Assembly: GCA_020846145.1 (NCBI GenBank)
Contig: JADLEL010000154.1
Span: 11,680 to 75,679, forward strand
DNA: 64,000 nt
From: Pirellulales bacterium
GTDB lineage: Bacteria; Planctomycetota; Planctomycetia; Pirellulales; Thermoguttaceae
Direction of reading: 5' to 3'
A program made the position numbers and the translations under genes. Each line of letters starts with the position of its first letter. Within the stretch, counting starts at the first letter, position 1. The notes under the pieces were generated by a model that did no database searches, had not been told where the DNA came from, and was given only the letters and a program-made list of their open reading frames with translations. Of the stretch, positions 11,523 through 34,269 are shown in pieces.

Positions 11523-11936
11523 TTGTTTTTATCGGGACGATTATTCCGCCGATTTGGATAGTGCCGTTCGATTTGCCCGCGGTTTGCAGCTCAATTTAAC
11601 GCCGGCAATCGAAAATTTAGACGCCGCACCTGGGATTCTTCAACCCTTTCGATAACGGATTATTCGCCGCCTGCGGGCCGGAAAAGCACGGTCTCCACGC
11701 GGCGGTTGCAGGAGCCGATCAGGACGTCGCGCTCCCAACGCTTTGTGGTGCTTCTAGGAGAAACCTGAATGTCCAGCTTTGAAGCTGCAGAAGCGTGCGC
11801 TTATTGCGAAGAAGAGCCTCCCGGTAGTACGACCTACCAATTGTCCTCGCGCCCCCCGGCGCCCCTCTCCCCGTCGAAACGGCAGCGTTCCGGCTCGGAA
11901 CGCGATCTTTTCGTCCCCGGTGGATTGCCCGGCCGG

Positions 11937-13070
11937 ATGCCGCGAAGCACCTTCCAAACCAAGGTTTTTCGCAAAACCTTCTACCCCGACGTCGCCGACA
12001 AGGAGTGGAACTCCTGGCACTGGCAGGCCCGCAACCGAATCCGCGCTCCCCAGCAACTCGAACTGGTTTTGGAGCTTTCGGACTCCGAGCGGGCAGCCTT
12101 GTCGCAGTCGAATTCAATGCTCCCGGTGAGCATCACTCCCTACTACATGAGCCTGGTTTCGGCCGACGATTGCCGCCAGCCGCTGCGGCGGACCGTCATT
12201 CCCACCCTCGATGAACTCGCGCGTTCGCCCGGCGAGGCCGACGACCCCCTCGGCGAAGACCACGACAGCCCCGTGCCGGGCCTGGTCCACCGCTATCCCG
12301 ACCGGGTTTTGCTCCTGGTAACCGACTTCTGTTCGAGCTATTGCCGTTACTGCACCCGCTCGCGGGTCGTGGGACAAGGACATATCGTCCCGCAGGAACA
12401 GCGGCTGGAACGGGCGTTCGAGTACATCCGCGCTACGCCGGCCATTCGCGACGTGCTCGTTTCGGGCGGCGATCCGCTGGCCTTGAGCGACGAGCGGCTG
12501 GATTGGGTTTTGACTTCGCTGCGGCAGATTCCGCACGTGGAGTTCGTCCGCATCGGCACCAAAATGCCCGCCGTGCTGCCGCAGCGGATCACGCCGGAAC
12601 TCTGCCGGATGCTCAGAAAGCACCATCCGCTGTTCATGAGCCTGCATTTCATCCATCCCGACGAATGCACGCCGGAATCTTTCCAAGCCTGCACCCGGCT
12701 GGCCGACGCGGGCATCCCCCTCGGCTCGCAAACGGTGCTCTTGAAGGGTGTGAACGACGACGTCGAGACGATGAAAAAGCTGGTCCACCGGCTGCTCGTG
12801 ATGCGGGTCCGCCCGTATTATTTGTACCAGTGCGATCCGATCAGCGGCTCCGCCCATTTTCGCACCCCGGTCTCGAAGGGCTTGGAGATCATTGACGGCC
12901 TCCGCGGCCACACGACCGGCTATGCCGTGCCGAACTACGTGATCGACGCCCCCGGCGGCGGCGGCAAGATCATTCTGACGCCCAACTTCGTCCTCGGCCG
13001 CGACGGCGACGACCTTCTCCTTCGCAATTACGAAGGCCAAGAGTTCCGGTATCCCGATCCGGTAGGATAA
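11937..13070 (+). CDS. kamA: KamA family radical SAM protein (lysine 2,3-aminomutase-like)
   Basis: CSSYCRYCTRS (CxxxCxxC), SGGDPL, and the N-terminal WNSWHWQARN region typical of KamA. ATG at 11937 lies within track ORF 11769..13070. Confidence 0.88.
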   Translation: MPRSTFQTKVFRKTFYPDVADKEWNSWHWQARNRIRAPQQLELVLELSDSERAALSQSNSMLPVSITPYYMSLVSADDCRQPLRRTVIPTLDELARSPGEADDPLGEDHDSPVPGLVHRYPDRVLLLVTDFCSSYCRYCTRSRVVGQGHIVPQEQRLERAFEYIRATPAIRDVLVSGGDPLALSDERLDWVLTSLRQIPHVEFVRIGTKMPAVLPQRITPELCRMLRKHHPLFMSLHFIHPDECTPESFQACTRLADAGIPLGSQTVLLKGVNDDVETMKKLVHRLLVMRVRPYYLYQCDPISGSAHFRTPVSKGLEIIDGLRGHTTGYAVPNYVIDAPGGGGKIILTPNFVLGRDGDDLLLRNYEGQEFRYPDPVG

Positions 13071-13078
13071 TCTCTTTC

Positions 13079-13117
13079 TCCCCTCTCCCTTTGGGAGAGG
13101 GGCCGGGGATGAGGGCA
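13079..13117. repeat. CTCCCCTCTCCC..GGGAGAGGGG hairpin repeat
   Basis: CTCCCCTCTCCCTTTGGGAGAGGGGCCGGGGATGAGGGC. An inverted relative lies at 34551-34589, and a related simple repeat at 62925-62960. Confidence 0.75.
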
Positions 13118-13186
13118 GGATTGGAAGCAACAAGTGGCATTCACCAAGAATGCGGGATATAAAATACTACGCAAGTTAGGGGTAAC

Positions 13187-14026
13187 ATGAGCGAGGTTCG
13201 GTATGATGAGATTGGCTACTGGTCAGAGATCAAGCTCGACATCGTTCGCAAATATGCGCAGGCGTATTCCAGCGTTCTATCCAAACAGTCAAGTATTCGC
13301 AAGTATCTCTATATCGATGCCTTTGCCGGTGCCGGAGTTCACATCTCGAAGCTAACCGGCGATTTCGTCCCCGGTAGCCCACTCCACGCCCTAAATGTAC
13401 AACCTCCATTCAGCGAATACCATTTTATCGACCTGGATGGCGATAAGGCGGATAATTTGCGGCAGTTGGCGGGTGACGTCCCGAACGTTTGGATTTATAA
13501 TGAAGATTGCAATTCAGTTTTGCCTGCCAAGGTGTTCACTCGTGCTCGTTGGGATGATTTTAATCGCGCGCTCTGTCTTTTGGATCCTTATGCGATGAAT
13601 CTTGACTGGGAAGTCATCCAGACAGCCGGACTGATGAAAAGCATTGAGATATTCATGAATTTCATGGTTATGGATGTCAACATGAATGTCCTTTGGAATA
13701 ATCCTGACAGCGTCCAGCCTTCGCAGTTGATGCGTATGGATGCTTTTTGGGGTGACCATTCTTGGCGCAATACGTTATATCAGAAACCGACGGGCTTGTT
13801 GCCGGGCTTCGATATTGAGGAGAAGGTATCAAATGCAGCCGTCGCTAAAGCATACCAGGATCGACTGAAGAGAGTCGCAGGCTTCAAATACGTTCCCGAT
13901 CCGATGCCGATGCGGAATTCGCGCGGCGCGATTGTTTATTACTTGTTTTTTGCGTCACCCAATGAAACTGGTGCGAAAATCGTTTCCGATATCTTCAATA
14001 CCTACCGAGACCGGGGGGCCGTTTAA
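13187..14026 (+). CDS. tcmP: three-Cys-motif partner protein TcmP (TIGR04474-like, Rossmann-type)
   Basis: [19 protein letters not shown]...[11 protein letters not shown]...PGSPLHAL matches my recollection of the TcmP family. It is adjacent to, and coupled with, a DUF5131 gene. AGGGG lies upstream of the ATG. Confidence 0.75.
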
Positions 14027-14787
14027 TGGCCACGAATTCTTCCATTGAATGGACCGAGTCCACTTGGAATCCAGTCACGGGTTGCACGAAAATCAGCCCA
14101 GGTTGCTTGAACTGTTATGCCGAACGCATGGCGAAACGGCTTCAGGCAATGGGCCAAGCGAATTATCTCGACGGATTCAAGGTTGCGACGCATGAACATG
14201 CCGTGGATTTACCGCTATCTTGGAAAAAGCCGCGGACGATCTTCGTTAACTCCATGAGCGATTTGTTTCATAAGTCGATTTCGGTCGATTTTATCAAACG
14301 GGTATTCGAGGTCATGCTTCGTGCGAATTGGCATCAATTCCAACTACTTACCAAACGGTCTGAACGCCTGCTGGAATTGGATAAGCAGCTTTCTTGGGTA
14401 CCTCATATCTGGATGGGTGTTAGCGTGGAGAATCGGGACTATACATTCCGCATTAACCACCTTCGCAAAACTCACGCTTATACGAAATTCCTTTCGCTTG
14501 AACCCCTGCTTGGTCCGTTGCCTAATCTCAACCTGGGCGGTATCGACTGGGTAATAGTTGGCGGTGAATCGGGCCCCGGTGCGCGGCCTATGAAACGGGA
14601 ATGGATTTCCGATATTCTCGATCAGTGCCAAGAGGCGAAGGTGCCTTTTTTCTTCAAGCAATGGGGGGGCATCCAAAAAAAACGCACAGGACGTGAATTG
14701 GACGGGCGCACTTGGGATGAACTGCCACTCTTACGCTCTGCACTTGATTCGAATATGCTTGCATGTCCCCATTCAAGTTCTCGTTAA
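14026..14787 (+). CDS. phage Gp37/Gp68 family protein (DUF5131, PF07505)
   Basis: [31 protein letters not shown] (CX6CX2C), [54 protein letters not shown]. The start overlaps the tcmP stop (TAATG). Confidence 0.88.
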
Positions 14788-14865
14788 ATGGTACTGGTCC
14801 ACTTCTTTAATCTTCATTTGACGGGTGGATGAAGTCAACTTTAGCGCTATTTACCTTAGGCAATC

Positions 14866-15846
14866 ATGCGCATCGGCCTCACCTACGACCTCCGCCAAGA
14901 CTATCTGGCCGAAGGCTACTCGCTCGAAGAAACGGCCGAGTGCGATAAAATCGAAACTATCGAGGGCATCGAATCCGCCTTGCGGGAGTTGGGCTACGCG
15001 ACCGACCGCATAGGCAACGGGAAAAAACTTATCGGGCGGCTGGCCGCGGGCGACCGCTGGGATTTGGTGTTCAATATCGCCGAGGGTTTGCACGGCGCCG
15101 CGCGCGAGGGGCAAGTGCCGGCGATCCTCGACATGCACCAAATCCCCTACACCTTTTCCGATCCGCTGGCGCTGGGCCTCGCGCTGCAGAAGGACCTGAC
15201 CAAGACCGTCATCCGCCAAGCGGGCGTGCCCACCCCGCGATTCGCCGTGGTCCGCCGCATGGAAGACCTCGAAACCGTCGATCTGCCCTTTCCGCTTTTC
15301 GCCAAGCCGGCGGCCGAGGGGACGAGCAAGGGAATCAATGCCGATTCGAAAATTTCGGACCGCGACGGCCTGAAAAAATCCTGCGCCGCCCTGCTCGAAC
15401 GGTTCCGCCAGCCGGTGCTGATCGAAGCGTATCTTTCGGGCCGGGAGTTCACGGTCGGCATCACCGGGACGGATGCGGAGGCCCGCGTGGTGGGTACGCT
15501 CGAAGTCTCGCTCACGTCCTCGGCGAAGGAAGATTTTTATTCCTATCATAACAAGCAACTCTACGATACTTGCATGGACTATACTCTGGTGCGGCCCGAA
15601 AAGGACGATGAAGTCCGCCAATGCGAAGCACTCGCGCTGACGGCTTATCGCTGCCTCGGCTGCCGCGACGCCGGCCGCGTCGATTTTCGTTCCGACGCCC
15701 AAGCCCGCCCGAATTTCATCGAGATCAATCCCCTGCCGGGCCTGAACGAAAAAGATTCCGACCTGCCGATTTTATGCCGGCAGTTGGGCATCGGCTACGT
15801 GGAATTGATCGAACGGATCGTAACTTCCGCCCGGCGAAGGATGTAA
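14866..15846 (+). CDS. D-alanine--D-alanine ligase family ATP-grasp enzyme
   Basis: Short Ddl-like layout: VFNIAEGLHG..REGQVPAILD, FAKPAAEGTSKGI, EAYLSGREFTVG, GRVDFR...FIEINPLPGL. Confidence 0.75.
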   Translation: MRIGLTYDLRQDYLAEGYSLEETAECDKIETIEGIESALRELGYATDRIGNGKKLIGRLAAGDRWDLVFNIAEGLHGAAREGQVPAILDMHQIPYTFSDPLALGLALQKDLTKTVIRQAGVPTPRFAVVRRMEDLETVDLPFPLFAKPAAEGTSKGINADSKISDRDGLKKSCAALLERFRQPVLIEAYLSGREFTVGITGTDAEARVVGTLEVSLTSSAKEDFYSYHNKQLYDTCMDYTLVRPEKDDEVRQCEALALTAYRCLGCRDAGRVDFRSDAQARPNFIEINPLPGLNEKDSDLPILCRQLGIGYVELIERIVTSARRRM

Positions 15847-15897
15847 TACCGAACGTCGCGCGATCGACGATCGCCCTGCATTACTCCCCGCGGACGC

Positions 15898-17331
15898 GTG
15901 AGCCAAACCGTGAACGATCGACCACCCGCCGCAATCGCTCCACCCGCGCTCGATTTGGCGGCTCGCCGTCGCGCCCGGCGGTTGGCGTACTGGAATGCGC
16001 TGCTCTGGTCGATCGGCAACGGCCTGAGCGGCAGCACGCTGGTGATTTATCTGGCGATGGAACTGCGCGCCGAGCGCATCGGGCTGAGCATCGGCTTGAT
16101 CCTGGCGGCGCGGCATTTCATCGGCGTCTTGCGGTTGGGTACGCCCGCCATGCTCGATCGCCGGCGGGACCGCAAACGATTCTGCACCATCACTTTCGCG
16201 CTGAGTGGAGTCTTGTTGCTATGTTTGCCGATTTGCGCCGCGCCGAAGGTGCTGCCCTCGGCGAACGCCTCGGTCTGGGCGTTGGTGATGTTGTGGTGTT
16301 CGCACCATTTAATGCAGTATCTCGGCACGATCGCGCTCTATTCGTGGCTGGCCGACCTGGTGCCGACGGCGGTTCGCGGCCGGTTTTTCGGACGGCGGGA
16401 ACGGTGGCTGGTCGCCGGCGAAGCGGCGGCGGCCATCGCTTGCGGATGGTTCGCCTGGGAGTGGTGCTTGCATTATCCCAAATCGCAACACTGGATCGGC
16501 TACGCCATTCCCGCCGGCTTCGGCGCGCTGTTCATACTCGCCGCGATCGTTCCCCTCCGGCGGATGCCGCGCGCGGAAAGATCCGCGGATAACGCGAATT
16601 GCAACGATCCACACCCCGTTCCGGCCAAAGGCAGGCCGGGAGAAACGACGAGGAATGCCTACTCCTGGAATCGGCTTTGGAAACCGCTGGGCGACCGTGC
16701 GTTTCTCGCCTTCTTGCTTTTCGGTTGCTGGTTTTCCGCCGCGAACGGCATCACGCAGACCGTGCAAAACTCGTATCCCAAGCAGGTTTTGCAGGTGGGA
16801 CTCTTTCTGATGCTCGCCGTGCAGACGGGAATGCGTCTGGGGCAGATCGGCGTCAGCCCTTATTTGGGCCGAGCGGCCGACCGGTTCGGCAACAAGCCGA
16901 TGATGCTCTTCTGCCTGTTGATCACCGCCCAAGGCCCGCTGTTTTATCTGTTCTCCACGCCCGAAAGTTGGTGCTGGTTCGTCGGCGCTTGGATCGCGTG
17001 GATCGCCTACGCGGGACTCAATATCGGCCTGCCGAACCTGATGCTGAAAATCGCTCCCCGCGACCAAAACGCCGATTACCTGGCGATCTATTACACTTGC
17101 GCCGGATTGTGCTATGGAGGAACGACGCTGCTGGGCGGGTGGCTCTTCGACCGCTATAAAAGTTTCACTTGGAGCTTAGGCGGCACGACCTGGGATGTCA
17201 ATCAAACCACGTTCCTCCTGGGTTGGATCGTCCGTTTGACGTGTCTGTTCTTTTTATGCGGGCTGATCGAGCCGAAAAGTCCGCAATTTCAGCGAATATA
17301 CGGCAAACAGGGCAATATAGGCAAACAGTAG
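15898..17331 (+). CDS. MFS-type transporter
   Basis: About 12 predicted hydrophobic helices with a central loop. GTG start. No substrate can be inferred. Confidence 0.6.
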   Translation: MSQTVNDRPPAAIAPPALDLAARRRARRLAYWNALLWSIGNGLSGSTLVIYLAMELRAERIGLSIGLILAARHFIGVLRLGTPAMLDRRRDRKRFCTITFALSGVLLLCLPICAAPKVLPSANASVWALVMLWCSHHLMQYLGTIALYSWLADLVPTAVRGRFFGRRERWLVAGEAAAAIACGWFAWEWCLHYPKSQHWIGYAIPAGFGALFILAAIVPLRRMPRAERSADNANCNDPHPVPAKGRPGETTRNAYSWNRLWKPLGDRAFLAFLLFGCWFSAANGITQTVQNSYPKQVLQVGLFLMLAVQTGMRLGQIGVSPYLGRAADRFGNKPMMLFCLLITAQGPLFYLFSTPESWCWFVGAWIAWIAYAGLNIGLPNLMLKIAPRDQNADYLAIYYTCAGLCYGGTTLLGGWLFDRYKSFTWSLGGTTWDVNQTTFLLGWIVRLTCLFFLCGLIEPKSPQFQRIYGKQGNIGKQ

Positions 17332-22663: not shown

Positions 22664-23611
22664 TCATTCGCACCCACGAGATTCAATCGTGCATTTGGGA
22701 TGCTGCCTTGCAAACTTGGCAATGGCGGCTTTCGATACTTTCGTATTAGACACATTTAGCTCTTGAATATTTGGCATTTTATTGAGGTAGTCCAAGGCAA
22801 CATCCGTAATTTGCGTCATTTCTAAATTGATCTTCTTCAACGAGGTAACTTCTGACAAATGCATTACCCCGTCGTCGCTAACAGTTGTGTGATATAAGAG
22901 AACTTCTTCAAGTCTTGGCAACTGTTTTAGATGCCGAAGCCCTTCGTCGGTGAATTTGCTTCCGTTTAGATATAAATGCGTAAGACCTTTGAGCGATTCA
23001 ATTTGCTCCAATCCTTTGTCGGTGATATTCACTCCTGTTATCATCAAATTGGTGAGCTTTGGTAACTTTGCCAAATCGGGGATAGCGGCATCAGTGATTT
23101 TCGTTTCGCCAAGGTTCAGATGATACAAATTTGGGAGGTTGCAAATGTGCTTTACACCAGCATCGGTTATCGAGGTCTCAGTAAGTATCAAACGTTGCAA
23201 CTTGTTCAATGAACGCAAATGGGCTAAACCAGCATCCGAGACTTTCGTTCTTTCGAGTCCAACTCCCTGAAGCTCCTTCAATCGCCCGATGAGCGGCATC
23301 ACTTCGTCACCGACTTTCAAATCTTTTAAATAGACAAACCCAACTTCGAGGATGCAGTCTTCACCAAACAGACTGATCCCCCACTTGCGAAAGAAGGACT
23401 CTTTTCCTGGAAAATATAGAGCAAATTGGACATTTGCTCCAACTTTTCTTAGTTCTGCGACTGTTTCTCCTCTTTGCCGAAAATAATAAACCGTAATGCT
23501 ACAGAAAATAGCGAAAAGCGTCATGGAGATGAGCAGCGACCGCAGGCTGTACTGATACCAGCGAAGCCTCCGCACCACCGGCTTTTCAACGGATTCAGGA
23601 GAATTTTCCAT
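22664..23611 (-). CDS. leucine-rich repeat protein with N-terminal membrane anchor
   Basis: About 9 tandem ~24-aa LRRs (L..L..L.L..T.ITDAGL..L). N-terminal TM helix LLISMTLFAIFCSITVYYF. The region is visibly AT-rich. Confidence 0.8.
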   Translation of the reverse strand: MENSPESVEKPVVRRLRWYQYSLRSLLISMTLFAIFCSITVYYFRQRGETVAELRKVGANVQFALYFPGKESFFRKWGISLFGEDCILEVGFVYLKDLKVGDEVMPLIGRLKELQGVGLERTKVSDAGLAHLRSLNKLQRLILTETSITDAGVKHICNLPNLYHLNLGETKITDAAIPDLAKLPKLTNLMITGVNITDKGLEQIESLKGLTHLYLNGSKFTDEGLRHLKQLPRLEEVLLYHTTVSDDGVMHLSEVTSLKKINLEMTQITDVALDYLNKMPNIQELNVSNTKVSKAAIAKFARQHPKCTIESRGCE

Positions 23612-23771
23612 CGGAACCGCTCCTTGCTCTCCGAAATTGTAGCCACCGACAGTGGTGGGACGCAAGAGGAATGAAAAAGTCATAGTTCTTGCCTTGAACC
23701 GCTGTTGCGATGAACTAAGCAGGAGGGGGCACGAACCGAATATCGGTGTTAAAGCAATTTGGAGGCGCGAC

Positions 23772-31836: not shown

Positions 31837-34269
31837 CTATCTCCGTCGCGGCGCGGTCCGTTGCCGATTTCCGCATAACCCGAACGCGATCGGGAGCACT
31901 GAAAATAATAACGCGAGCATCCCCGGCTCCGGCACGGCGATCGAAAGGGTGGTGGAGCCGATGGCGAGCGCATTGACTCGAATGCTCGTCGCCGTGAGCG
32001 CGGTGGGCGAACCGTCCGCGCCCACGCCGAGCGCGCCGCCGCCGACGATTTCGTGCAGATCGGCCGTAGCGCCGTTGAAGAGCAGAGTCCCCTCGGCAAT
32101 GGTGGTGAGTCCCCGATAGTCGGCGTTGCCTTTCACGACGACGGCGCCCGGTCCTTCTTTTATCAGATCGCCGACGTCCGTGAGCCGGCCGTTGAGAACG
32201 AGTTCGTCGGAGGCGTTCGGCGCGAGAAGCCGCGCGCGGGAAGTGATTTTGAGGTACGGATCGATCGTGCCGCCGCCGGCGATCGTGCCGCCGGCCATTT
32301 CGATAAAATCGGCGAAGACGGCGGCGGTGGGATCGAGGGTAAGCGAACTGCCTTCCCAGATTTTGACGGCGACGGGCAGTTCGATCCGGCCGAAGTCGGA
32401 GACCGAGACGTCGCCCGTCCCGCCTTTGGTCATGGCATCGCCGCCGATGACGAGCGTTTCGCCGATGGCCCAAACGGAATCCGCGCCGGAGATGGAGACG
32501 CCGCCGATCGAACCGGGGTATCGGGCGACGATGCCGTAGCCCGACGCGACGCGGCCGCCGTTCTCGATATTCAAGGTCCCCTGGCCGTAAAAGCCCACGT
32601 TCAAGGTTCCGTCGTGGGTCCAGATCGAGCCGGTGTCCTTGACGGTTACGTTGCCCGCGCCCCGTTTTCCCGGTCCGCCGTCGTAGGCGCCGAGAATGGC
32701 GGCGGAGTTGGAGGGGGAGAGATGCGGATGGGATTCGACCCGCGCGCCGCCCTCGATTTCCAGAATGCCCAGGTTTTCCGTCCCGACTTTGATTTGCGCG
32801 TTGGCGACCAGGGCGGAGGGCGTGCCGTTGGAATCGTGTCCGCGGACGGCGACGAAACCGATGGCGTTTTGCCCGATTTCGACGATTCCCTTGGTTCCCT
32901 CTGGGAGGTTCGGATCGGCGTTTTCGGTGGTGACGGAGACCAGTCCGCCGTTGGCGATGAACATTTGCGCGAAGCCGAGATGCCCGATTTCCAGGCGGAA
33001 TCGATTGTGCAAATGCGCGTCCATGCCGTTGACTTCGACGACGCCGATTCCGGTGCCGTCGCCGCCGACGAGAGTGAGGTATTCGTTGGAGAGATAGCCC
33101 CCGTGCAGCACTTTCACCGTGGCGCTGGTGGTTTTTCCGACGAGCAGGCCGACGTAATCGCCGCCGGGATCGGGATTGTTGGGATCGCCGGCGCCGCGGC
33201 CTTTGACGAACAGTTGCGAATCGGGGCCTTCGACGCGGACTAGCGCCTTGACGTCGTCGTTGACGTAATCGCCCCTGCCGAGCGAGAGCGATTTTTCGAT
33301 TTCGGCCAGACCGCCGGATTGGACGATCAATTCGCCAGAGCTAAGTTTCTTTTCGGCGAGGGTAACGTGTCCGAAATTATGCAAATGCCCTTGGTTTTGC
33401 ACGGTTACGGAGCCGTCCCCTTCCATGCCGACGACCAGGCTGACTTCGGGATCGCTCAACAGTTCCCAGGTCGAATCGAGGCCGTCGATCGTGGCGCTGC
33501 CCTTTCCGAAAGCGCTGGAGGGGCCGCCGGGAACGTCGCGGACCTCGCCCATCACGCAGCGGCCGACGCGGGCGGTCGCGCTGAGGCTCACGTTCAAGTT
33601 TCCCTCGCCGCGTCCGCCGAGCGCGAAAAAGCCCGTGCAGTGCCAAAGCGAGTTGGGATCGCGGACGGTGATATCGCCGCGGCCGCCGACCGAAGCGCCC
33701 GCGCCGCCATGGCCGTGCTCGACGGTCGCGCCGTTGTCGATCCACAAGGAGCCGATGCCCGAATCGCCGACGGTCATTCCGTGTTGGAAGGCCGTCCAGC
33801 GGTCGTCGGTCGCGGGATTGTTGTCTCCGCGCATGCAGAGTTCGGCCGAGCTTCCGGGCAGCCGCGCGATGAAGCAATCGTATGCATCGACCACGCCGTG
33901 AACGACCGCCAGGCGGGTATTCGTCGAGGAATCGCCGATGACCGCGGCGGGATCGTCCAAACCCGGAGTCCAAACGTGATGCAGCGTGTAGGTGTGATTG
34001 CCCAAGTTCAAATTCACGTCGGTCGATTGCGTTACATCCGCCAAATCGACGAGCAGTTGGCCGTTCGTTACGTCGTTGGCGAGCGAGATCGTGCCGGTGA
34101 GCGGCATGTTGATGATCGCCCGGTCGTTCGCGCCGGGCGGACCGGCGGGAGTCCAGTAGGTGATCGTGTTGAAATCGCCTCCCGCCGCATGATTCCAAAC
34201 ATAATCGGCGGCGAACGAATTCGCGGGCAAGAATAATGTCGCCAAGAGGAGCAATGAGAAGACTTTCAT
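31837..34269 (-). CDS. PEP-CTERM-anchored beta-helix (autotransporter-passenger-like) surface protein
   Basis: Signal peptide MKVFSLLLLATLFLPANSFA; Gly/Asn/Val-rich beta-helix repeats; terminal VPEPGMLALLFSVLPIAFGLCGNRQR (PEP-CTERM). Confidence 0.8.
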   Translation of the reverse strand: MKVFSLLLLATLFLPANSFAADYVWNHAAGGDFNTITYWTPAGPPGANDRAIINMPLTGTISLANDVTNGQLLVDLADVTQSTDVNLNLGNHTYTLHHVWTPGLDDPAAVIGDSSTNTRLAVVHGVVDAYDCFIARLPGSSAELCMRGDNNPATDDRWTAFQHGMTVGDSGIGSLWIDNGATVEHGHGGAGASVGGRGDITVRDPNSLWHCTGFFALGGRGEGNLNVSLSATARVGRCVMGEVRDVPGGPSSAFGKGSATIDGLDSTWELLSDPEVSLVVGMEGDGSVTVQNQGHLHNFGHVTLAEKKLSSGELIVQSGGLAEIEKSLSLGRGDYVNDDVKALVRVEGPDSQLFVKGRGAGDPNNPDPGGDYVGLLVGKTTSATVKVLHGGYLSNEYLTLVGGDGTGIGVVEVNGMDAHLHNRFRLEIGHLGFAQMFIANGGLVSVTTENADPNLPEGTKGIVEIGQNAIGFVAVRGHDSNGTPSALVANAQIKVGTENLGILEIEGGARVESHPHLSPSNSAAILGAYDGGPGKRGAGNVTVKDTGSIWTHDGTLNVGFYGQGTLNIENGGRVASGYGIVARYPGSIGGVSISGADSVWAIGETLVIGGDAMTKGGTGDVSVSDFGRIELPVAVKIWEGSSLTLDPTAAVFADFIEMAGGTIAGGGTIDPYLKITSRARLLAPNASDELVLNGRLTDVGDLIKEGPGAVVVKGNADYRGLTTIAEGTLLFNGATADLHEIVGGGALGVGADGSPTALTATSIRVNALAIGSTTLSIAVPEPGMLALLFSVLPIAFGLCGNRQRTAPRRR

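What the first reader, a model, noticed from the sequence alone, without database searches (positions are those of the whole stretch)
13130..14860. AT-richer, translationally coupled TcmP + Gp37/Gp68 (DUF5131) cassette wedged between kamA and an ATP-grasp gene
Seen in the sequence:
- Two genes (13187..14026 and 14026..14787) overlap as TAATG.
- The whole ~1.7 kb block is visibly poorer in G+C (roughly high-40s % by eye) than both flanks (over 60 %).
- The second protein carries an N-terminal CX6CX2C cluster (C20, C27, C30) plus the DUF5131 motifs SMSDLFH, EPLLGP, GGESGP and FFKQWGG.
- The first carries a Rossmann-type glycine loop, YIDAFAGAG.

Established knowledge: the TcmP family (TIGR04474) is defined by its obligate adjacency to PF07505 proteins. 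PF07505 is named after mycobacteriophage Gp37/Gp68. To my knowledge no biochemical function has been assigned to the pair.

Inference: this is a horizontally acquired, phage-related two-component module. It pairs an Fe-S or radical-type enzyme with a methyltransferase-fold partner, and could act in nucleic-acid modification, defence or counter-defence. It is the best candidate in this window for an undescribed system.
Basis: partly seen in the sequence, partly recalled or inferred. Interest (0 to 1): 0.8.

Follow-up and report, generated by a model that had tools for sequence, protein, structure and literature searches.

The report
Acquired TcmP–DUF5131 two-gene cassette
A foreign two-gene cassette, pairing a methyltransferase-like protein with an iron-sulfur (radical-SAM-like) protein, sits inside a conserved operon of a planctomycete; the pair is already listed as an untested anti-phage candidate and its chemistry is unknown.

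Summary
Two + strand ORFs (13187..14026 and 14026..14787) overlap as TAATG. They lie in the lowest-GC 1.7-kb stretch of the window (48.4% vs 59.9%; GC3 0.53-0.55 vs 0.76-0.80). ORF1 is TcmP (TIGR04474, 205 bits). ORF2 is DUF5131/PF07505 (335 bits) with invariant C20/C27/C30.

In 80 kamA loci from several phyla, about 70 have the ATP-grasp gene directly after kamA and none has the pair. The cassette is therefore an insertion into a conserved operon. No recombinase, repeats or conserved ends were found.

The same overlapping pair recurs in defence islands (RM, TIR, NERD, Abi, NB-ARC, Hna) and alone between housekeeping genes.

The TcmP model (pLDDT 83) is a class I SAM methyltransferase fold closest to the m6A methylase RlmJ, with matching K16/D82/D107/D133-P-Y. 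The DUF5131 model is a partial TIM barrel with no close solved relative.

PADLOC already lists the pair as PDC-M41, one of 145 untested candidates. No biochemical study was found.

Best reading: a horizontally acquired, SAM-dependent nucleic-acid-modifying pair, probably used in phage-host conflict. A DNA-damage-response role is the main rival. This is a new member of a known but uncharacterised kind.

The parts
13187..14026 (+). tcmP: three-Cys-motif partner protein, 279 aa, class I SAM-methyltransferase fold
   Evidence: TIGR04474 at 204.6 bits, cut-off 53. PADLOC PDC-M41A at 246 bits. AF2 model pLDDT 82.8, pTM 0.85. Best Foldseek PDB match is RlmJ, E = 1e-6, TM about 0.5.
14026..14787 (+). 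DUF5131 / phage Gp37-Gp68 family gene, 253 aa, CX6CX2C protein classed in the radical SAM superfamily
   Evidence: PF07505 at 335 bits. PDC-M41B at 398 bits. PHROG 2045. TIGR04471 at 76 bits, E = 2e-21, below cut-off. AF2 model pLDDT 74, a partial TIM barrel.
14024..14028 (+). TAATG stop/start overlap (translational coupling)
   Evidence: Read directly from the sequence. The same stop/start overlap (1 base in most loci, 10 bases in L105; L101 abuts with no overlap) occurs in homologous loci L081, L087, L089, L090, L100, L103 and L105.
13120..14865 (.). Low-GC, atypical-codon inserted block; boundaries approximate
   Evidence: GC 0.48-0.49 against 0.60-0.63. The change-point fit gives 13120-14974. 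No equivalent DNA lies between kamA and the ATP-grasp gene in 80 related loci.
14083..14115 (+). Codons for C20-X6-C27-X2-C30, the presumed [4Fe-4S] ligands
   Evidence: Invariant in 46 homologues. Cluster binding itself is inferred, not shown.
13310..13336 (+). TcmP motif I, Y42-IDAFAGAG-50 (SAM-binding glycine loop)
   Evidence: F46, G48 and G50 are invariant in the subfamily. The motif is retained in distant plasmid and phage homologues except BaxterFox.
13583..13591 (+). TcmP motif IV-like D133-P134-Y135
   Evidence: D133 and P134 are 97% conserved across 98 diverse family members of 24-59% identity. The motif corresponds by order and spacing to RlmJ D164-PPY.
13178..13182 (+). AGGGG, Shine-Dalgarno-like, 4 nt before the tcmP ATG
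   Evidence: Read from the sequence; function is inferred.
14013..14018 (+). GGGGGG, Shine-Dalgarno-like, 7 nt before the DUF5131 ATG and inside the 3' end of tcmP
   Evidence: Read from the sequence; function is inferred.
13080..13102 (+). Perfect 10-bp-stem hairpin just after the kamA stop codon; marks the host side of the left junction
   Evidence: Inverted repeat I10. Contigs L094 and L095 both begin at window position 13079.
11769..13070 (+). Host flank: KamA-family radical SAM aminomutase
   Evidence: TIGR00238 at 345 bits, TIGR03820 at 497 bits (below its 525 cut-off), LAM_C and Radical_SAM.
14866..15846 (+). Host flank: ATP-grasp (D-Ala-D-Ala-ligase-type) gene, normally directly downstream of kamA
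   Evidence: Dala_Dala_lig_C at 107 bits. Adjacent to kamA in about 70 of 80 loci.

Best explanation
A 1.7-kb, two-gene cassette (tcmP then DUF5131) was acquired horizontally. It inserted, co-oriented, into the short spacer of a conserved kamA / ATP-grasp operon of a Pirellulales bacterium.

The two proteins are made in coupled fashion and most likely act together as one SAM-dependent enzyme system on a nucleic acid.
- TcmP is an RlmJ-like class I methyltransferase-fold protein. It probably binds SAM and a flipped-out base through K16, D82, D107 and D133-P-Y.
- DUF5131 probably holds a [4Fe-4S] cluster on C20/C27/C30 in a partial TIM barrel and carries out radical-SAM-type chemistry on the same target.

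The biological role is most likely in phage-host conflict, as the catalogued but untested PADLOC candidate PDC-M41.

Shown here: gene identity, coupling, foreign composition, insertion, recurrent pairing, fold of TcmP, conserved residues.
Inferred: physical complex, Fe-S cluster and SAM cleavage, nucleic-acid substrate, defence role.

Approximate probabilities: acquired insert of this family pair about 0.95; the two act together on a nucleic acid about 0.6; the role is anti-phage defence about 0.45. The overall confidence of 0.5 refers to the whole layered statement.
For: Identity.

Foreign origin:
- GC 0.48 vs 0.60, z = -3.8, GC3 0.53-0.55 vs 0.76-0.80.
- Codon adaptation 0.50-0.53 vs 0.69-0.78, and change points at 13120-14974.
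- 0 of 80 kamA loci carry the pair, while about 70 of 80 have kamA directly followed by the ATP-grasp gene, across Planctomycetota, Acidobacteriota, Desulfobacterota and Proteobacteria.
- The nearest relatives that have the ATP-grasp gene have only a 77-195 bp spacer there.
- The closest TcmP homologues (71-81% identity) sit in unrelated contexts.

Functional linkage:
- Every TcmP examined has a DUF5131 gene within 1.5 kb. These are the window, L081, L087, L089, L090, L100, L101, L103, L105, L099, L098, L096, L097 and L109-L113.
- The stop/start overlap is conserved within the subfamily.

TcmP active site:
- The fold matches RlmJ and other class I SAM methyltransferases.
- K16, D107, D133-P134 and W141 are conserved at 92-97% across 98 members of 24-59% identity.
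- RlmJ needs K18, E118, D143 and D164-PPY (PMC3814359). The motif II to III spacing is 25 residues in both proteins.

DNA hint: the longer partner variant in S. meliloti (PDC-M30A type) has a C-terminal winged-helix domain.

DUF5131:
- Three invariant Cys.
- Full-length similarity to TIGR04471 'radical SAM mobile pair protein A', E = 2e-21.
- Partial TIM barrel with weak matches to MiaB, LIAS, SPL and NifB.
- Listed as a radical SAM subgroup next to spore photoproduct lyase (PMC9477430).

Defence association:
- PADLOC PDC-M41 was derived by embedding inside BREX, DISARM and type I RM loci.
- Neighbours include HsdS, SLFN/AlbA, NB-ARC-TPR and PLD+SNF2 (L081); AAA_15 plus an N6/N4 methylase (L087); SNF2, RmuC, TIR and NERD (L100); an MmeI-type enzyme 49 bp upstream (L101); two Abi genes (L099); and Hna (L098).
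- In phage BaxterFox the pair lies between the integrase and the immunity repressor.

Selection: two alleles of DUF5131 differ with dN/dS = 0.09.
Against: - No experiment on any member was found. PDC-M41 is explicitly untested.
- This copy, like L089 and L103, is not in a defence island.
- No nuclease or other obvious effector is present.
- DUF5131 lacks the canonical CX3CX2C motif and gives no PF04055 hit even at E <= 10. hhalign against KamA is not significant. No solved structure matches at E < 1e-3. The Cys region of the model has low confidence.
- TcmP has DPY, not DPPY. It has no Pfam hit, and TM to RlmJ is only about 0.5.
- Most phage DUF5131 genes have no TcmP partner, so DUF5131 can work without TcmP.
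- No TcmP-DUF5131 fusion protein was seen, and no heterodimer model could be made.
- The mycobacterial homologue is wired to recA, which points to DNA damage and not to defence.
Confidence: 0.5

Rival explanations
1. DNA-damage-response or DNA-repair pair. DUF5131 would act like its radical-SAM neighbours, the spore-photoproduct-lyase / SplB-type DNA repair lyases, on a damaged or adducted base. TcmP would supply base-flipping recognition or methyl transfer. Expression would be tied to the SOS / RecA response.
For: - RadicalSAM.org places DUF5131 (Megacluster-5-2) beside spore photoproduct lyase (5-3). SPL appears among the weak fold matches.
- In M. tuberculosis the TcmP-domain gene is co-transcribed with recA-recX. 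The identification is Rv2735c = BCG_2748c, the gene just downstream of recX = BCG_2749c (PMC3062782, PMC7387457).
- Rv2734, Rv2735c, recX and recA form one mitomycin-C-responsive cluster (PMC5057432).
- In L105 the pair follows LexA and a PolB gene.
- Phage DUF5131 genes sit in recombination/replication blocks with RecT, RuvC and Bet.
Against: - Distribution is patchy and horizontal, and the pair is absent from 80 relatives at this site.
- Rv2735c is absent at that site in M. smegmatis and frameshifted in many clinical isolates. It looks like another insertion behind a host operon and not part of the core recA function.
- The pair is embedded in RM, BREX and DISARM loci and lies beside Abi, TIR and NERD genes.
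- I did not verify that Rv2734 is the DUF5131 partner.
- Induction by DNA damage is also typical of prophage-linked defence genes.
Confidence: 0.2
2. Restriction-modification-like or addiction module with a radical effector. TcmP would methylate self nucleic acid as the protective 'M' component. DUF5131 would damage unmarked nucleic acid by 5'-deoxyadenosyl-radical chemistry as the 'R' component, which would also make the cassette addictive.
For: - The two-gene, methylase-first, translationally coupled layout resembles many RM operons.
- The catalytic constellation resembles N6-adenine methylases.
- Contexts include RM loci: directly after a type IIG enzyme in L101 and near HsdS in L081.
- An orphan TcmP lies next to Hna in S. 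meliloti.
- In L088 and L104 the DUF5131 gene is frameshifted at the same codons while TcmP is intact, as in decaying RM systems.
Against: - About 175 phage genomes carry DUF5131 without a recognisable TcmP. That is hard to reconcile with an unrestrained toxic effector.
- No radical-SAM restriction enzyme is known.
- The two frameshifts may be long-read basecalling artefacts.
- L094 pairs an identical TcmP with a DUF5131 allele of only 89% identity, which shows no tight specificity matching.
Confidence: 0.12
3. RNA-modification enzyme pair acting on rRNA or tRNA. It would be a horizontally spread accessory modification, for example conferring antibiotic or toxin resistance as Cfr does, and not an immune function.
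For: - The best structural matches of TcmP are RNA methyltransferases: RlmJ, TYW4, KsgA and a tRNA cmo5U methylase.
- Radical SAM enzymes paired with methyltransferases are common in RNA modification (established knowledge: RlmN/Cfr, MiaB, the TYW1-4 pathway). MiaB is among the weak DUF5131 fold matches.
Against: - A winged-helix DNA-binding domain is fused to the PDC-M30A partner variant.
- Genomic association is with DNA-targeting defence systems and recombination genes.
- RlmJ's active site is itself shared with DNA m6A methylases.
- There is no linkage to ribosomal or tRNA genes in any locus examined.
Confidence: 0.08
4. Inert passenger. The cassette would be a recently arrived, non-functional or decaying remnant with no role in this host, and the compositional signal would be all there is.
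For: - No promoter-like site was found upstream of tcmP.
- The copy is isolated from any other defence gene.
- Related copies are sometimes disrupted, as in L088 and L104.
Against: - Both ORFs are full length, with all family-invariant residues intact.
- SD-like sequences and the coupling overlap are preserved.
- dN/dS = 0.09 between two population alleles.
- Co-orientation behind kamA allows read-through expression.
Confidence: 0.05

Closest known systems
PADLOC candidate systems PDC-M41 (A+B) and PDC-M30 (A+B) (Payne et al. 2024, bioRxiv 10.1101/2024.01.29.577857)
   Same: Both window proteins hit the PDC-M41 models strongly: A at 246 bits and B at 398 bits. The genes are adjacent, as that two-gene candidate requires. 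Homologues sit inside or next to RM and other defence loci.
   Different: PDC-M41 is a computational candidate with no tested activity or mechanism. This copy is not embedded in a defence system. It sits inside a metabolic operon. PDC-M30 uses a longer partner with a C-terminal winged helix, which the window protein lacks.
RlmJ, 23S rRNA m6A2030 methyltransferase (PDB 4blu/6qe5/7p9i; PMC3814359)
   Same: It is the best structural match of TcmP (E = 1e-6, TM about 0.5). Both have an N-terminal helix with a conserved Lys (K16 vs K18). Both have acidic residues after beta2 and beta3, at the same 25-residue spacing. Both have an Asp-Pro-aromatic motif IV.
   Different: No sequence-level relationship is detectable: no Pfam or PDB profile hit. 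TcmP has DPY instead of DPPY. TM of only about 0.5 indicates different insertions. RlmJ works alone, is chromosomal and housekeeping. TcmP is always next to DUF5131 and is horizontally mobile.
Radical SAM superfamily, Megacluster 5 of RadicalSAM.org (spore photoproduct lyase, MJ0683-like, DUF5131) and TIGR04471 'radical SAM mobile pair protein A'
   Same: DUF5131 has three Cys near the N terminus followed by a (beta/alpha)6-like partial barrel. It is listed as a subgroup of the superfamily. It shows full-length similarity to TIGR04471, E = 2e-21.
   Different: Cys spacing is CX6CX2C, not CX3CX2C. There is no PF04055 match. The TIGR04471 score is far below its cut-off (76 vs 355). No solved structure matches at E < 1e-3. 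SAM cleavage has never been shown for the family in the literature searched.
M. tuberculosis Rv2735c (with Rv2734), downstream of recA-recX
   Same: A TcmP-domain protein is inserted co-directionally behind a host operon and is transcribed with it. It is dispensable and patchily distributed.
   Different: Its gene layout relative to its presumed DUF5131 partner (Rv2734, not verified here) differs from the co-directional overlap in the window. It is about 330 aa long. It is DNA-damage inducible because of its position. Nothing comparable is known for the window copy.
Type II restriction-modification operons
   Same: Both are compact, horizontally mobile, translationally coupled two-gene units with a SAM-methyltransferase-fold protein. 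Both are found in defence islands.
   Different: The pair has no recognisable nuclease. The second gene is a Cys-cluster TIM-barrel protein. No target motif or methylation is known.

Membership tests
TcmP (NCBIfam TIGR04474) | Profile score above the curated cut-off | tested here: met
   204.6 bits vs cut-off 53, covering 1-262 of 263 profile positions.
TcmP (NCBIfam TIGR04474) | Encoded next to a PF07505 three-Cys protein | tested here: met
   Overlapping genes in the window. The same adjacency (within 1.5 kb) holds in 17 other TcmP loci examined.
DUF5131 / phage Gp37-Gp68 (Pfam PF07505) | Profile score above the gathering threshold, full length | tested here: met
   335.2 bits vs 28.9, covering profile positions 1-243 of 243.
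DUF5131 / phage Gp37-Gp68 (Pfam PF07505) | N-terminal three-Cys motif CX6CX2C | tested here: met
   C20, C27 and C30 are invariant in 46 homologues.
Radical SAM superfamily | CX3CX2C motif, or a match to the Radical_SAM (PF04055) profile | tested here: not met
   The spacing is CX6CX2C. There is no PF04055 hit at E <= 10. hhalign against the KamA family gives probability 0.4%.
Radical SAM superfamily | Partial (beta/alpha)6 TIM-barrel core | tested here: inconclusive
   The model has six beta-alpha units. Best matches are TIM barrels, with MiaB, LIAS, SPL and NifB among the weak hits, but no hit reaches E < 1e-3 and pLDDT is only 74.
Radical SAM superfamily | [4Fe-4S] cluster that reductively cleaves SAM to a 5'-deoxyadenosyl radical | not testable with these tools
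   This needs anaerobic purification, spectroscopy and 5'-dA assays. The curated classification lists DUF5131 as a subgroup (PMC9477430).
PADLOC PDC-M41 candidate defence system | Both component HMMs matched, in adjacent genes | tested here: met
   PDC-M41A at 245.9 bits and PDC-M41B at 398 bits, in overlapping genes.
PADLOC PDC-M41 candidate defence system | Protects against phage infection | not testable with these tools
   The source paper states that the 145 PDC systems are untested.
RlmJ-type / N6-adenine (amino) methyltransferases | Class I Rossmann methyltransferase fold with SAM-binding motifs I-III | tested here: met
   51 Foldseek hits at E <= 1e-3; all of the 50 listed except one (rank 37, a plant GID1A-RGA-SLY1 complex) are SAM methyltransferases, and RlmJ is first. 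Motif I, D82 and D107 are conserved.
RlmJ-type / N6-adenine (amino) methyltransferases | Catalytic motif IV (D/N)PP(Y/F/W) | tested here: not met
   The family-wide motif is D133-P134-(Y/F)135, with one Pro instead of two. RlmJ has D164-P-P-Y.
RlmJ-type / N6-adenine (amino) methyltransferases | Sequence-profile membership (Pfam or PDB profile) | tested here: not met
   No Pfam family at E <= 10. No PDB chain at E <= 10 with the family profile.
Self-mobile element (transposon, integron cassette, prophage, integrative island) | Recombinase gene, terminal or direct repeats, attC-like site or tRNA target | tested here: not met
   No tRNA in the window. No flanking repeats. No conserved DNA beyond the ORFs in five loci. 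No Rfam match. Neighbours are ordinary cellular genes.
Restriction-modification system | Methyltransferase plus a recognisable restriction nuclease | tested here: not met
   The second protein matches only DUF5131 and PDC models, with no nuclease family.

The most novel reading that the evidence does not exclude
The TcmP-DUF5131 pair is a new kind of immune or genome-guarding enzyme system that uses radical-SAM chemistry directly on nucleic acid. An RlmJ-like base-flipping, SAM-binding subunit would select or mark a base. A CX6CX2C iron-sulfur subunit would then install or remove a so-far-unknown DNA (or RNA) modification, or damage unmarked invader DNA. This would be a 'radical restriction-modification' principle with no characterised precedent.
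Probability: 0.2. Interest if true: 0.85.

Novelty: new member of a known kind. Interest (0 to 1): 0.5.

Why it matters
The TcmP family has about 4,460 clusters at 50% identity, and DUF5131 returned at least 8,000 homologues. The pair occurs across many bacterial phyla, plasmids and phages, and it includes a recA-operon gene of M. tuberculosis. No function was found in the literature searched. If the pair performs radical-SAM chemistry on DNA or RNA together with an m6A-methylase-like partner, it would add a new enzymatic principle to phage defence or DNA-damage biology, and possibly a new nucleic-acid modification.

This window adds three things. It gives a very clean natural 'insertion experiment': a minimal, intact, two-gene unit with no accessory genes, dropped into a conserved operon, which defines the minimal functional unit to clone. 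It adds residue-level predictions for mutagenesis (K16, D107, D133 in TcmP; C20, C27, C30 in DUF5131). It adds the observation that the conserved unit has no mobility machinery of its own.

Tried and rejected
1. Sequence and profile searches of both proteins against PDB sequences found nothing useful.
2. hhalign of DUF5131 against a KamA-family alignment, as a test of radical-SAM homology, was not significant. Only the CxxC stretch aligned.
3. Junction mapping by aligning intergenic DNA of relatives failed, because relatives at about 80% KamA identity are too diverged.
4. A search for conserved ends, repeats, tRNA targets, promoters, terminators or RNA families around the cassette found nothing convincing. 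I therefore rejected the idea that it is a self-mobile element.
5. The hairpin at 13080-13102 was tested as a multi-copy REP-like repeat. It has only one copy in the window.
6. Looking up exact KamA and ATP-grasp proteins, to find a same-population empty site, failed because neither is indexed.
7. A search for TcmP-DUF5131 fusion proteins among long family members found none. The long hits are read-throughs from host PfkB or glycosyltransferase genes.
8. The idea that the cassette replaced a gene was rejected. More distant relatives do have a 175-aa CxxCxxCC-domain gene between kamA and the ATP-grasp gene. The nearer relatives have only a 77-195 bp spacer.
9. The apparent DUF5131 'split' in L086 is an assembly gap with Ns, not a mutation.
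10. A quantitative defence-island enrichment test was considered and dropped. The family-scan tool returns only per-family counts for batches, which would not give a clean statistic. I rely on about a dozen annotated contexts and on the published embedding analysis.
11. A heterodimer model could not be made with the single-chain prediction tool.
Full report
**Observation.**
The window has two + strand ORFs, 13187..14026 (279 aa) and 14026..14787 (253 aa). Their stop and start codons share one base, giving TAATG.

The block 13130-14860 has 48.4% GC against 59.9% for the window. It is the lowest of all same-length windows (z = -3.8). GC3 is 0.55 and 0.53, against 0.76-0.80 in seven neighbouring genes.

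A two-change-point fit places the low-GC segment at about 13120-14974 (0.487 inside, 0.629 outside). A codon-adaptation index trained on the window's own genes gives 0.53 and 0.50 for the pair, against 0.69-0.78 for the neighbours.

**Identity.**
ORF1 is TcmP: TIGR04474 at 204.6 bits, cut-off 53, with no Pfam family even at E <= 10. ORF2 is DUF5131/PF07505 at 335 bits. ORF2 also shows a full-length but sub-threshold similarity to TIGR04471, 'radical SAM mobile pair protein A' (E = 2e-21), and it belongs to PHROG 2045, of unknown function.

PADLOC recognises the two proteins as PDC-M41A (246 bits) and PDC-M41B (398 bits).

The source organism is a Pirellulales MAG, since a 100% identical protein is on record. 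The flanking genes are a KamA-family radical SAM aminomutase and a D-Ala-D-Ala-ligase-type ATP-grasp protein, followed by an MFS transporter.

**It is an insertion.**
I fetched 80 kamA loci from one-genome-per-species collections and mapped the neighbouring genes. In about 70 of them the ATP-grasp gene follows kamA directly. These loci span Planctomycetota, Acidobacteriota, Desulfobacterota, Gamma- and Alphaproteobacteria and others. None of the 80 has tcmP or DUF5131 anywhere in the fetched DNA.

More distant relatives carry a conserved 175-aa CxxCxxCC-domain gene between the two host genes. The window's nearer relatives (L004, L007-L010) have only a 77-195 bp spacer. The cassette therefore entered a short spacer and did not replace a gene.

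The closest TcmP homologues (71-81% identity) lie in entirely different contexts. The refutation condition 'uniformly present at this position in all relatives' clearly fails.

**What moves.**
Nucleotide similarity between the window and four homologous loci starts at the tcmP start codon and fades before the DUF5131 stop codon. There are no flanking direct or inverted repeats, no tRNA, no recombinase gene and no Rfam element. The conserved unit is just the two coupled ORFs.

In 8 of the 10 loci examined (the window and nine related loci), the pair is co-oriented with the gene upstream. Some database 'proteins' are read-throughs from a host gene into tcmP. Both facts are consistent with a promoter-poor cassette that relies on host transcription, but this is inference.

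The pair is lower in GC than its flanks in 10 of 11 comparisons. The gap is largest in this window (-0.118). That suggests a relatively recent arrival from a lower-GC donor.

**Context survey.**
Defence-type neighbours:

| Locus | Neighbours |
|---|---|
| L081 | HsdS, SLFN/AlbA ATPase, NB-ARC-TPR, PLD+SNF2 |
| L087 | AAA_15 ATPase + large N6/N4 methylase |
| L100 | SNF2+DUF4391, RmuC, TIR, NERD |
| L101 | MmeI-type type IIG enzyme 49 bp upstream |
| L099 (Leisingera plasmid) | two Abi genes |
| L098 (S. meliloti pSymA) | Hna, a validated defence gene |

Solitary insertions between housekeeping genes:

| Locus | Position |
|---|---|
| this window | kamA / ATP-grasp |
| L089 | sigma-70 / thiL-tsaE |
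| L103 | guaB / guaA |

L105 lies after LexA and a PolB gene.

Every TcmP examined has a DUF5131 gene within 1.5 kb, but the arrangement varies. In this subfamily it is a co-directional overlap, TcmP then DUF5131. The order is reversed in Leisingera and in one viral contig. It is convergent in Gordonia phage BaxterFox and in a Synechococcus phage.

The converse does not hold. DUF5131 occurs in 180 phage records, while a TcmP-like gene is detectable in only 5. A family-wide TcmP HMM finds no partner within 3 kb of the DUF5131 genes of two mycobacteriophages. Only 6 IMG/VR contigs matched the TcmP subfamily patterns.

**Structure and residues.**
The TcmP model is confident (pLDDT 82.8, pTM 0.85). 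Foldseek returns 51 PDB hits at E <= 1e-3. Of the 50 listed, all but one (rank 37, a plant gibberellin-receptor complex) are class I SAM methyltransferases. They are led by RlmJ, the 23S rRNA m6A2030 methylase (E = 1e-6, TM about 0.5).

Across 98 diverse family members (24-59% identity), the best-conserved residues are K16, Y23, Y42, F75, L91, D107, R127, D133-P134, W141, G189 and W193. Motif I (YIDAFAGxG) is largely kept.

The RlmJ paper shows that K18 (motif X) and D164 of the DPPY motif are essential. E118 binds the SAM ribose and D143 binds the adenine (PMC3814359). TcmP offers K16, D82, D107 and D133-P-Y in the same order. The motif II to III spacing is the same, 25 residues.

I conclude that TcmP very probably binds SAM and a flipped-out base. 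Whether it transfers a methyl group is not shown. The motif is DPY and not DPPY, and there is no sequence-profile link to RlmJ.

The DUF5131 model is weaker (pLDDT 74; the Cys loop scores 50-60). It is a six-stranded beta/alpha partial barrel. The best PDB matches are TIM barrels at E > 1e-3, with MiaB, lipoyl synthase, spore photoproduct lyase and NifB among them.

Radical-SAM membership therefore rests on four things. They are the curated RadicalSAM.org listing, the TIGR04471 similarity, the three invariant Cys, and the fold. The canonical CX3CX2C motif and a PF04055 match are absent, and hhalign to KamA is not significant.

A longer partner variant in S. meliloti (PDC-M30A type) carries a C-terminal winged-helix domain. 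That is a hint that DNA is the ligand.

**Literature.**
Searches for DUF5131, PF07505, TIGR04474, TcmP, Gp37Gp68, COG4422, PDC-M41 and PDC-M30 returned only annotation-level mentions.

The PDC systems come from a 'guilt-by-embedding' screen of genes nested in BREX, DISARM and type I RM loci. The authors state that the 145 candidates are untested.

There is an unexpected line of evidence from mycobacteria:
- The BCG gene with the TcmP domain (BCG_2748c) lies directly downstream of recX (BCG_2749c), so it is the Rv2735c orthologue.
- Rv2735c is co-transcribed with recA-recX.
- Rv2734-Rv2735c-recX-recA is a mitomycin-C-responsive cluster.
- The gene is missing at that site in M. smegmatis and is frameshifted in many clinical isolates.

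I did not verify that Rv2734 is the DUF5131 partner.

**Mechanism.**
Best explanation: an acquired, minimal, translationally coupled two-enzyme module acting on a nucleic acid. TcmP would be the SAM- and base-binding, RlmJ-like subunit. DUF5131 would be a [4Fe-4S], radical-SAM-type subunit. The module would be used in phage-host conflict.

- Shown: identity, coupling, insertion, recurrent pairing, fold, conserved residues, purifying selection (dN/dS 0.09 between two population alleles).
- Inferred: complex formation, cluster binding, SAM cleavage, substrate and biological role.

The main rival is a DNA-damage or repair function. It is supported by the SPL neighbourhood in radical-SAM sequence space, the recA operon in M. 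tuberculosis, LexA/PolB in L105, and phage recombination-module contexts. Lesser rivals are an RM-like 'methylase plus radical effector' addiction module, an accessory RNA-modification pair, and an inert passenger.

**Novelty and score.**
The gene pair, its obligate linkage, its radical-SAM classification and its candidacy as a defence system are all already in public resources. This locus is therefore a new member of a known, uncharacterised kind. It is not an undescribed system.

The family-level question is open and easy to test. This window supplies a clean minimal unit and specific residues to mutate. Interest is 0.5. The most novel reading not excluded is a radical-SAM-based restriction/modification or hypermodification principle. 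I give it a probability of about 0.2, and it would deserve about 0.85.

Noticed in passing
L094 (aligns to window 13079-14805): A metagenome contig from a sister sample is 100% identical to the window across tcmP, with a single mismatch at 13165. From about 14073 onward it diverges by about 13% in DNA through the whole DUF5131 gene (89% protein identity, dN/dS 0.09). This sharp breakpoint at the gene boundary suggests recombination that swaps DUF5131 alleles behind one TcmP, or an assembly chimera of two co-existing cassettes.
   Followed up: partly
L088 vs L087 and L104 vs L103 (DUF5131 codons 184-185); window equivalent about 14575-14582: In two independent lineages the DUF5131 gene is frameshifted by the same 'GC to T' change at the same codons, inside the invariant [10 protein letters not shown] motif, while the TcmP protein is unchanged. 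This may be real recurrent inactivation of the putative effector, or a systematic long-read basecalling error at a methylated GCGC-type motif.
   Followed up: partly
window 14663-14669 and 14675-14682: A G7 run and an A8 run lie 5 bp apart inside the DUF5131 coding sequence. They are 2 of only 20 homopolymers of 7 or more bases in the 64-kb window. This is a possible slippage or phase-variation hotspot. No length variation was seen in the three sister contigs.
   Followed up: partly
window 11769-17331; loci L004-L080: kamA followed by a D-Ala-D-Ala-ligase-type ATP-grasp gene is a conserved gene pair in about 70 of 80 loci from at least five phyla. A 175-aa CxxCxxCC (PF03692) gene often lies between them, and here an MFS transporter lies downstream and a class I methyltransferase upstream. 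This looks like a conserved pathway for a beta-amino-acid-containing product, which I did not identify.
   Followed up: partly
window 22664-23683 (- strand): This is a second compositional outlier: a 339-aa leucine-rich-repeat protein with an N-terminal hydrophobic segment. GC is about 0.39-0.47 and codon adaptation is 0.46, so it is probably another foreign gene.
   Followed up: partly
window 13079-13102; L094 and L095: Two independent short-read contigs start exactly at window 13079, at the perfect 10-bp-stem hairpin just after the kamA stop codon. This may mark an assembly-graph branch at the left junction of the insert (genomes with and without the cassette) or a hairpin-induced break.
   Followed up: partly
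L096 (Gordonia phage BaxterFox NC_031226.1, record 32200-32928, + strand): A full-length DUF5131 ORF (HMM E = 1e-107) is not annotated in the RefSeq record. That record instead annotates three small opposite-strand genes (39-41) over it. The related phage Fairfaxidum annotates the DUF5131 gene. The BaxterFox TcmP-like gene 42 has lost motif I and the DP(Y/F) motif.
   Followed up: partly
L098 (S. meliloti pSymA NC_003037.1, record 1249408-1264247): Next to the validated defence gene hna lie three related genes. They are a PDC-M41A-type TcmP (SMa2243), a convergent DUF5131 gene, and between them a 415-aa PDC-M30A-type TcmP-like gene with a GMT-like winged-helix domain. This locus therefore has one DUF5131 and two different partners.
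   Followed up: partly
L107 (Mycobacterium phage prophiT36-2a, genes 14-16): A solo DUF5131 gene, annotated there as 'RNA methyltransferase', lies directly downstream of a conventional 523-aa DNA methyltransferase and a small DNA-binding protein, in the RecT/RepA/RuvC early region. In phages a different methylase may take the place of TcmP.
   Followed up: no
L001, L002, L003, L005, L012 (closest KamA relatives, about 80% identity): These loci lack the ATP-grasp gene downstream of kamA. L001 has an Acyl_transf_3 membrane acyltransferase there instead. The region just downstream of kamA is therefore evolutionarily plastic in this clade.
   Followed up: partly
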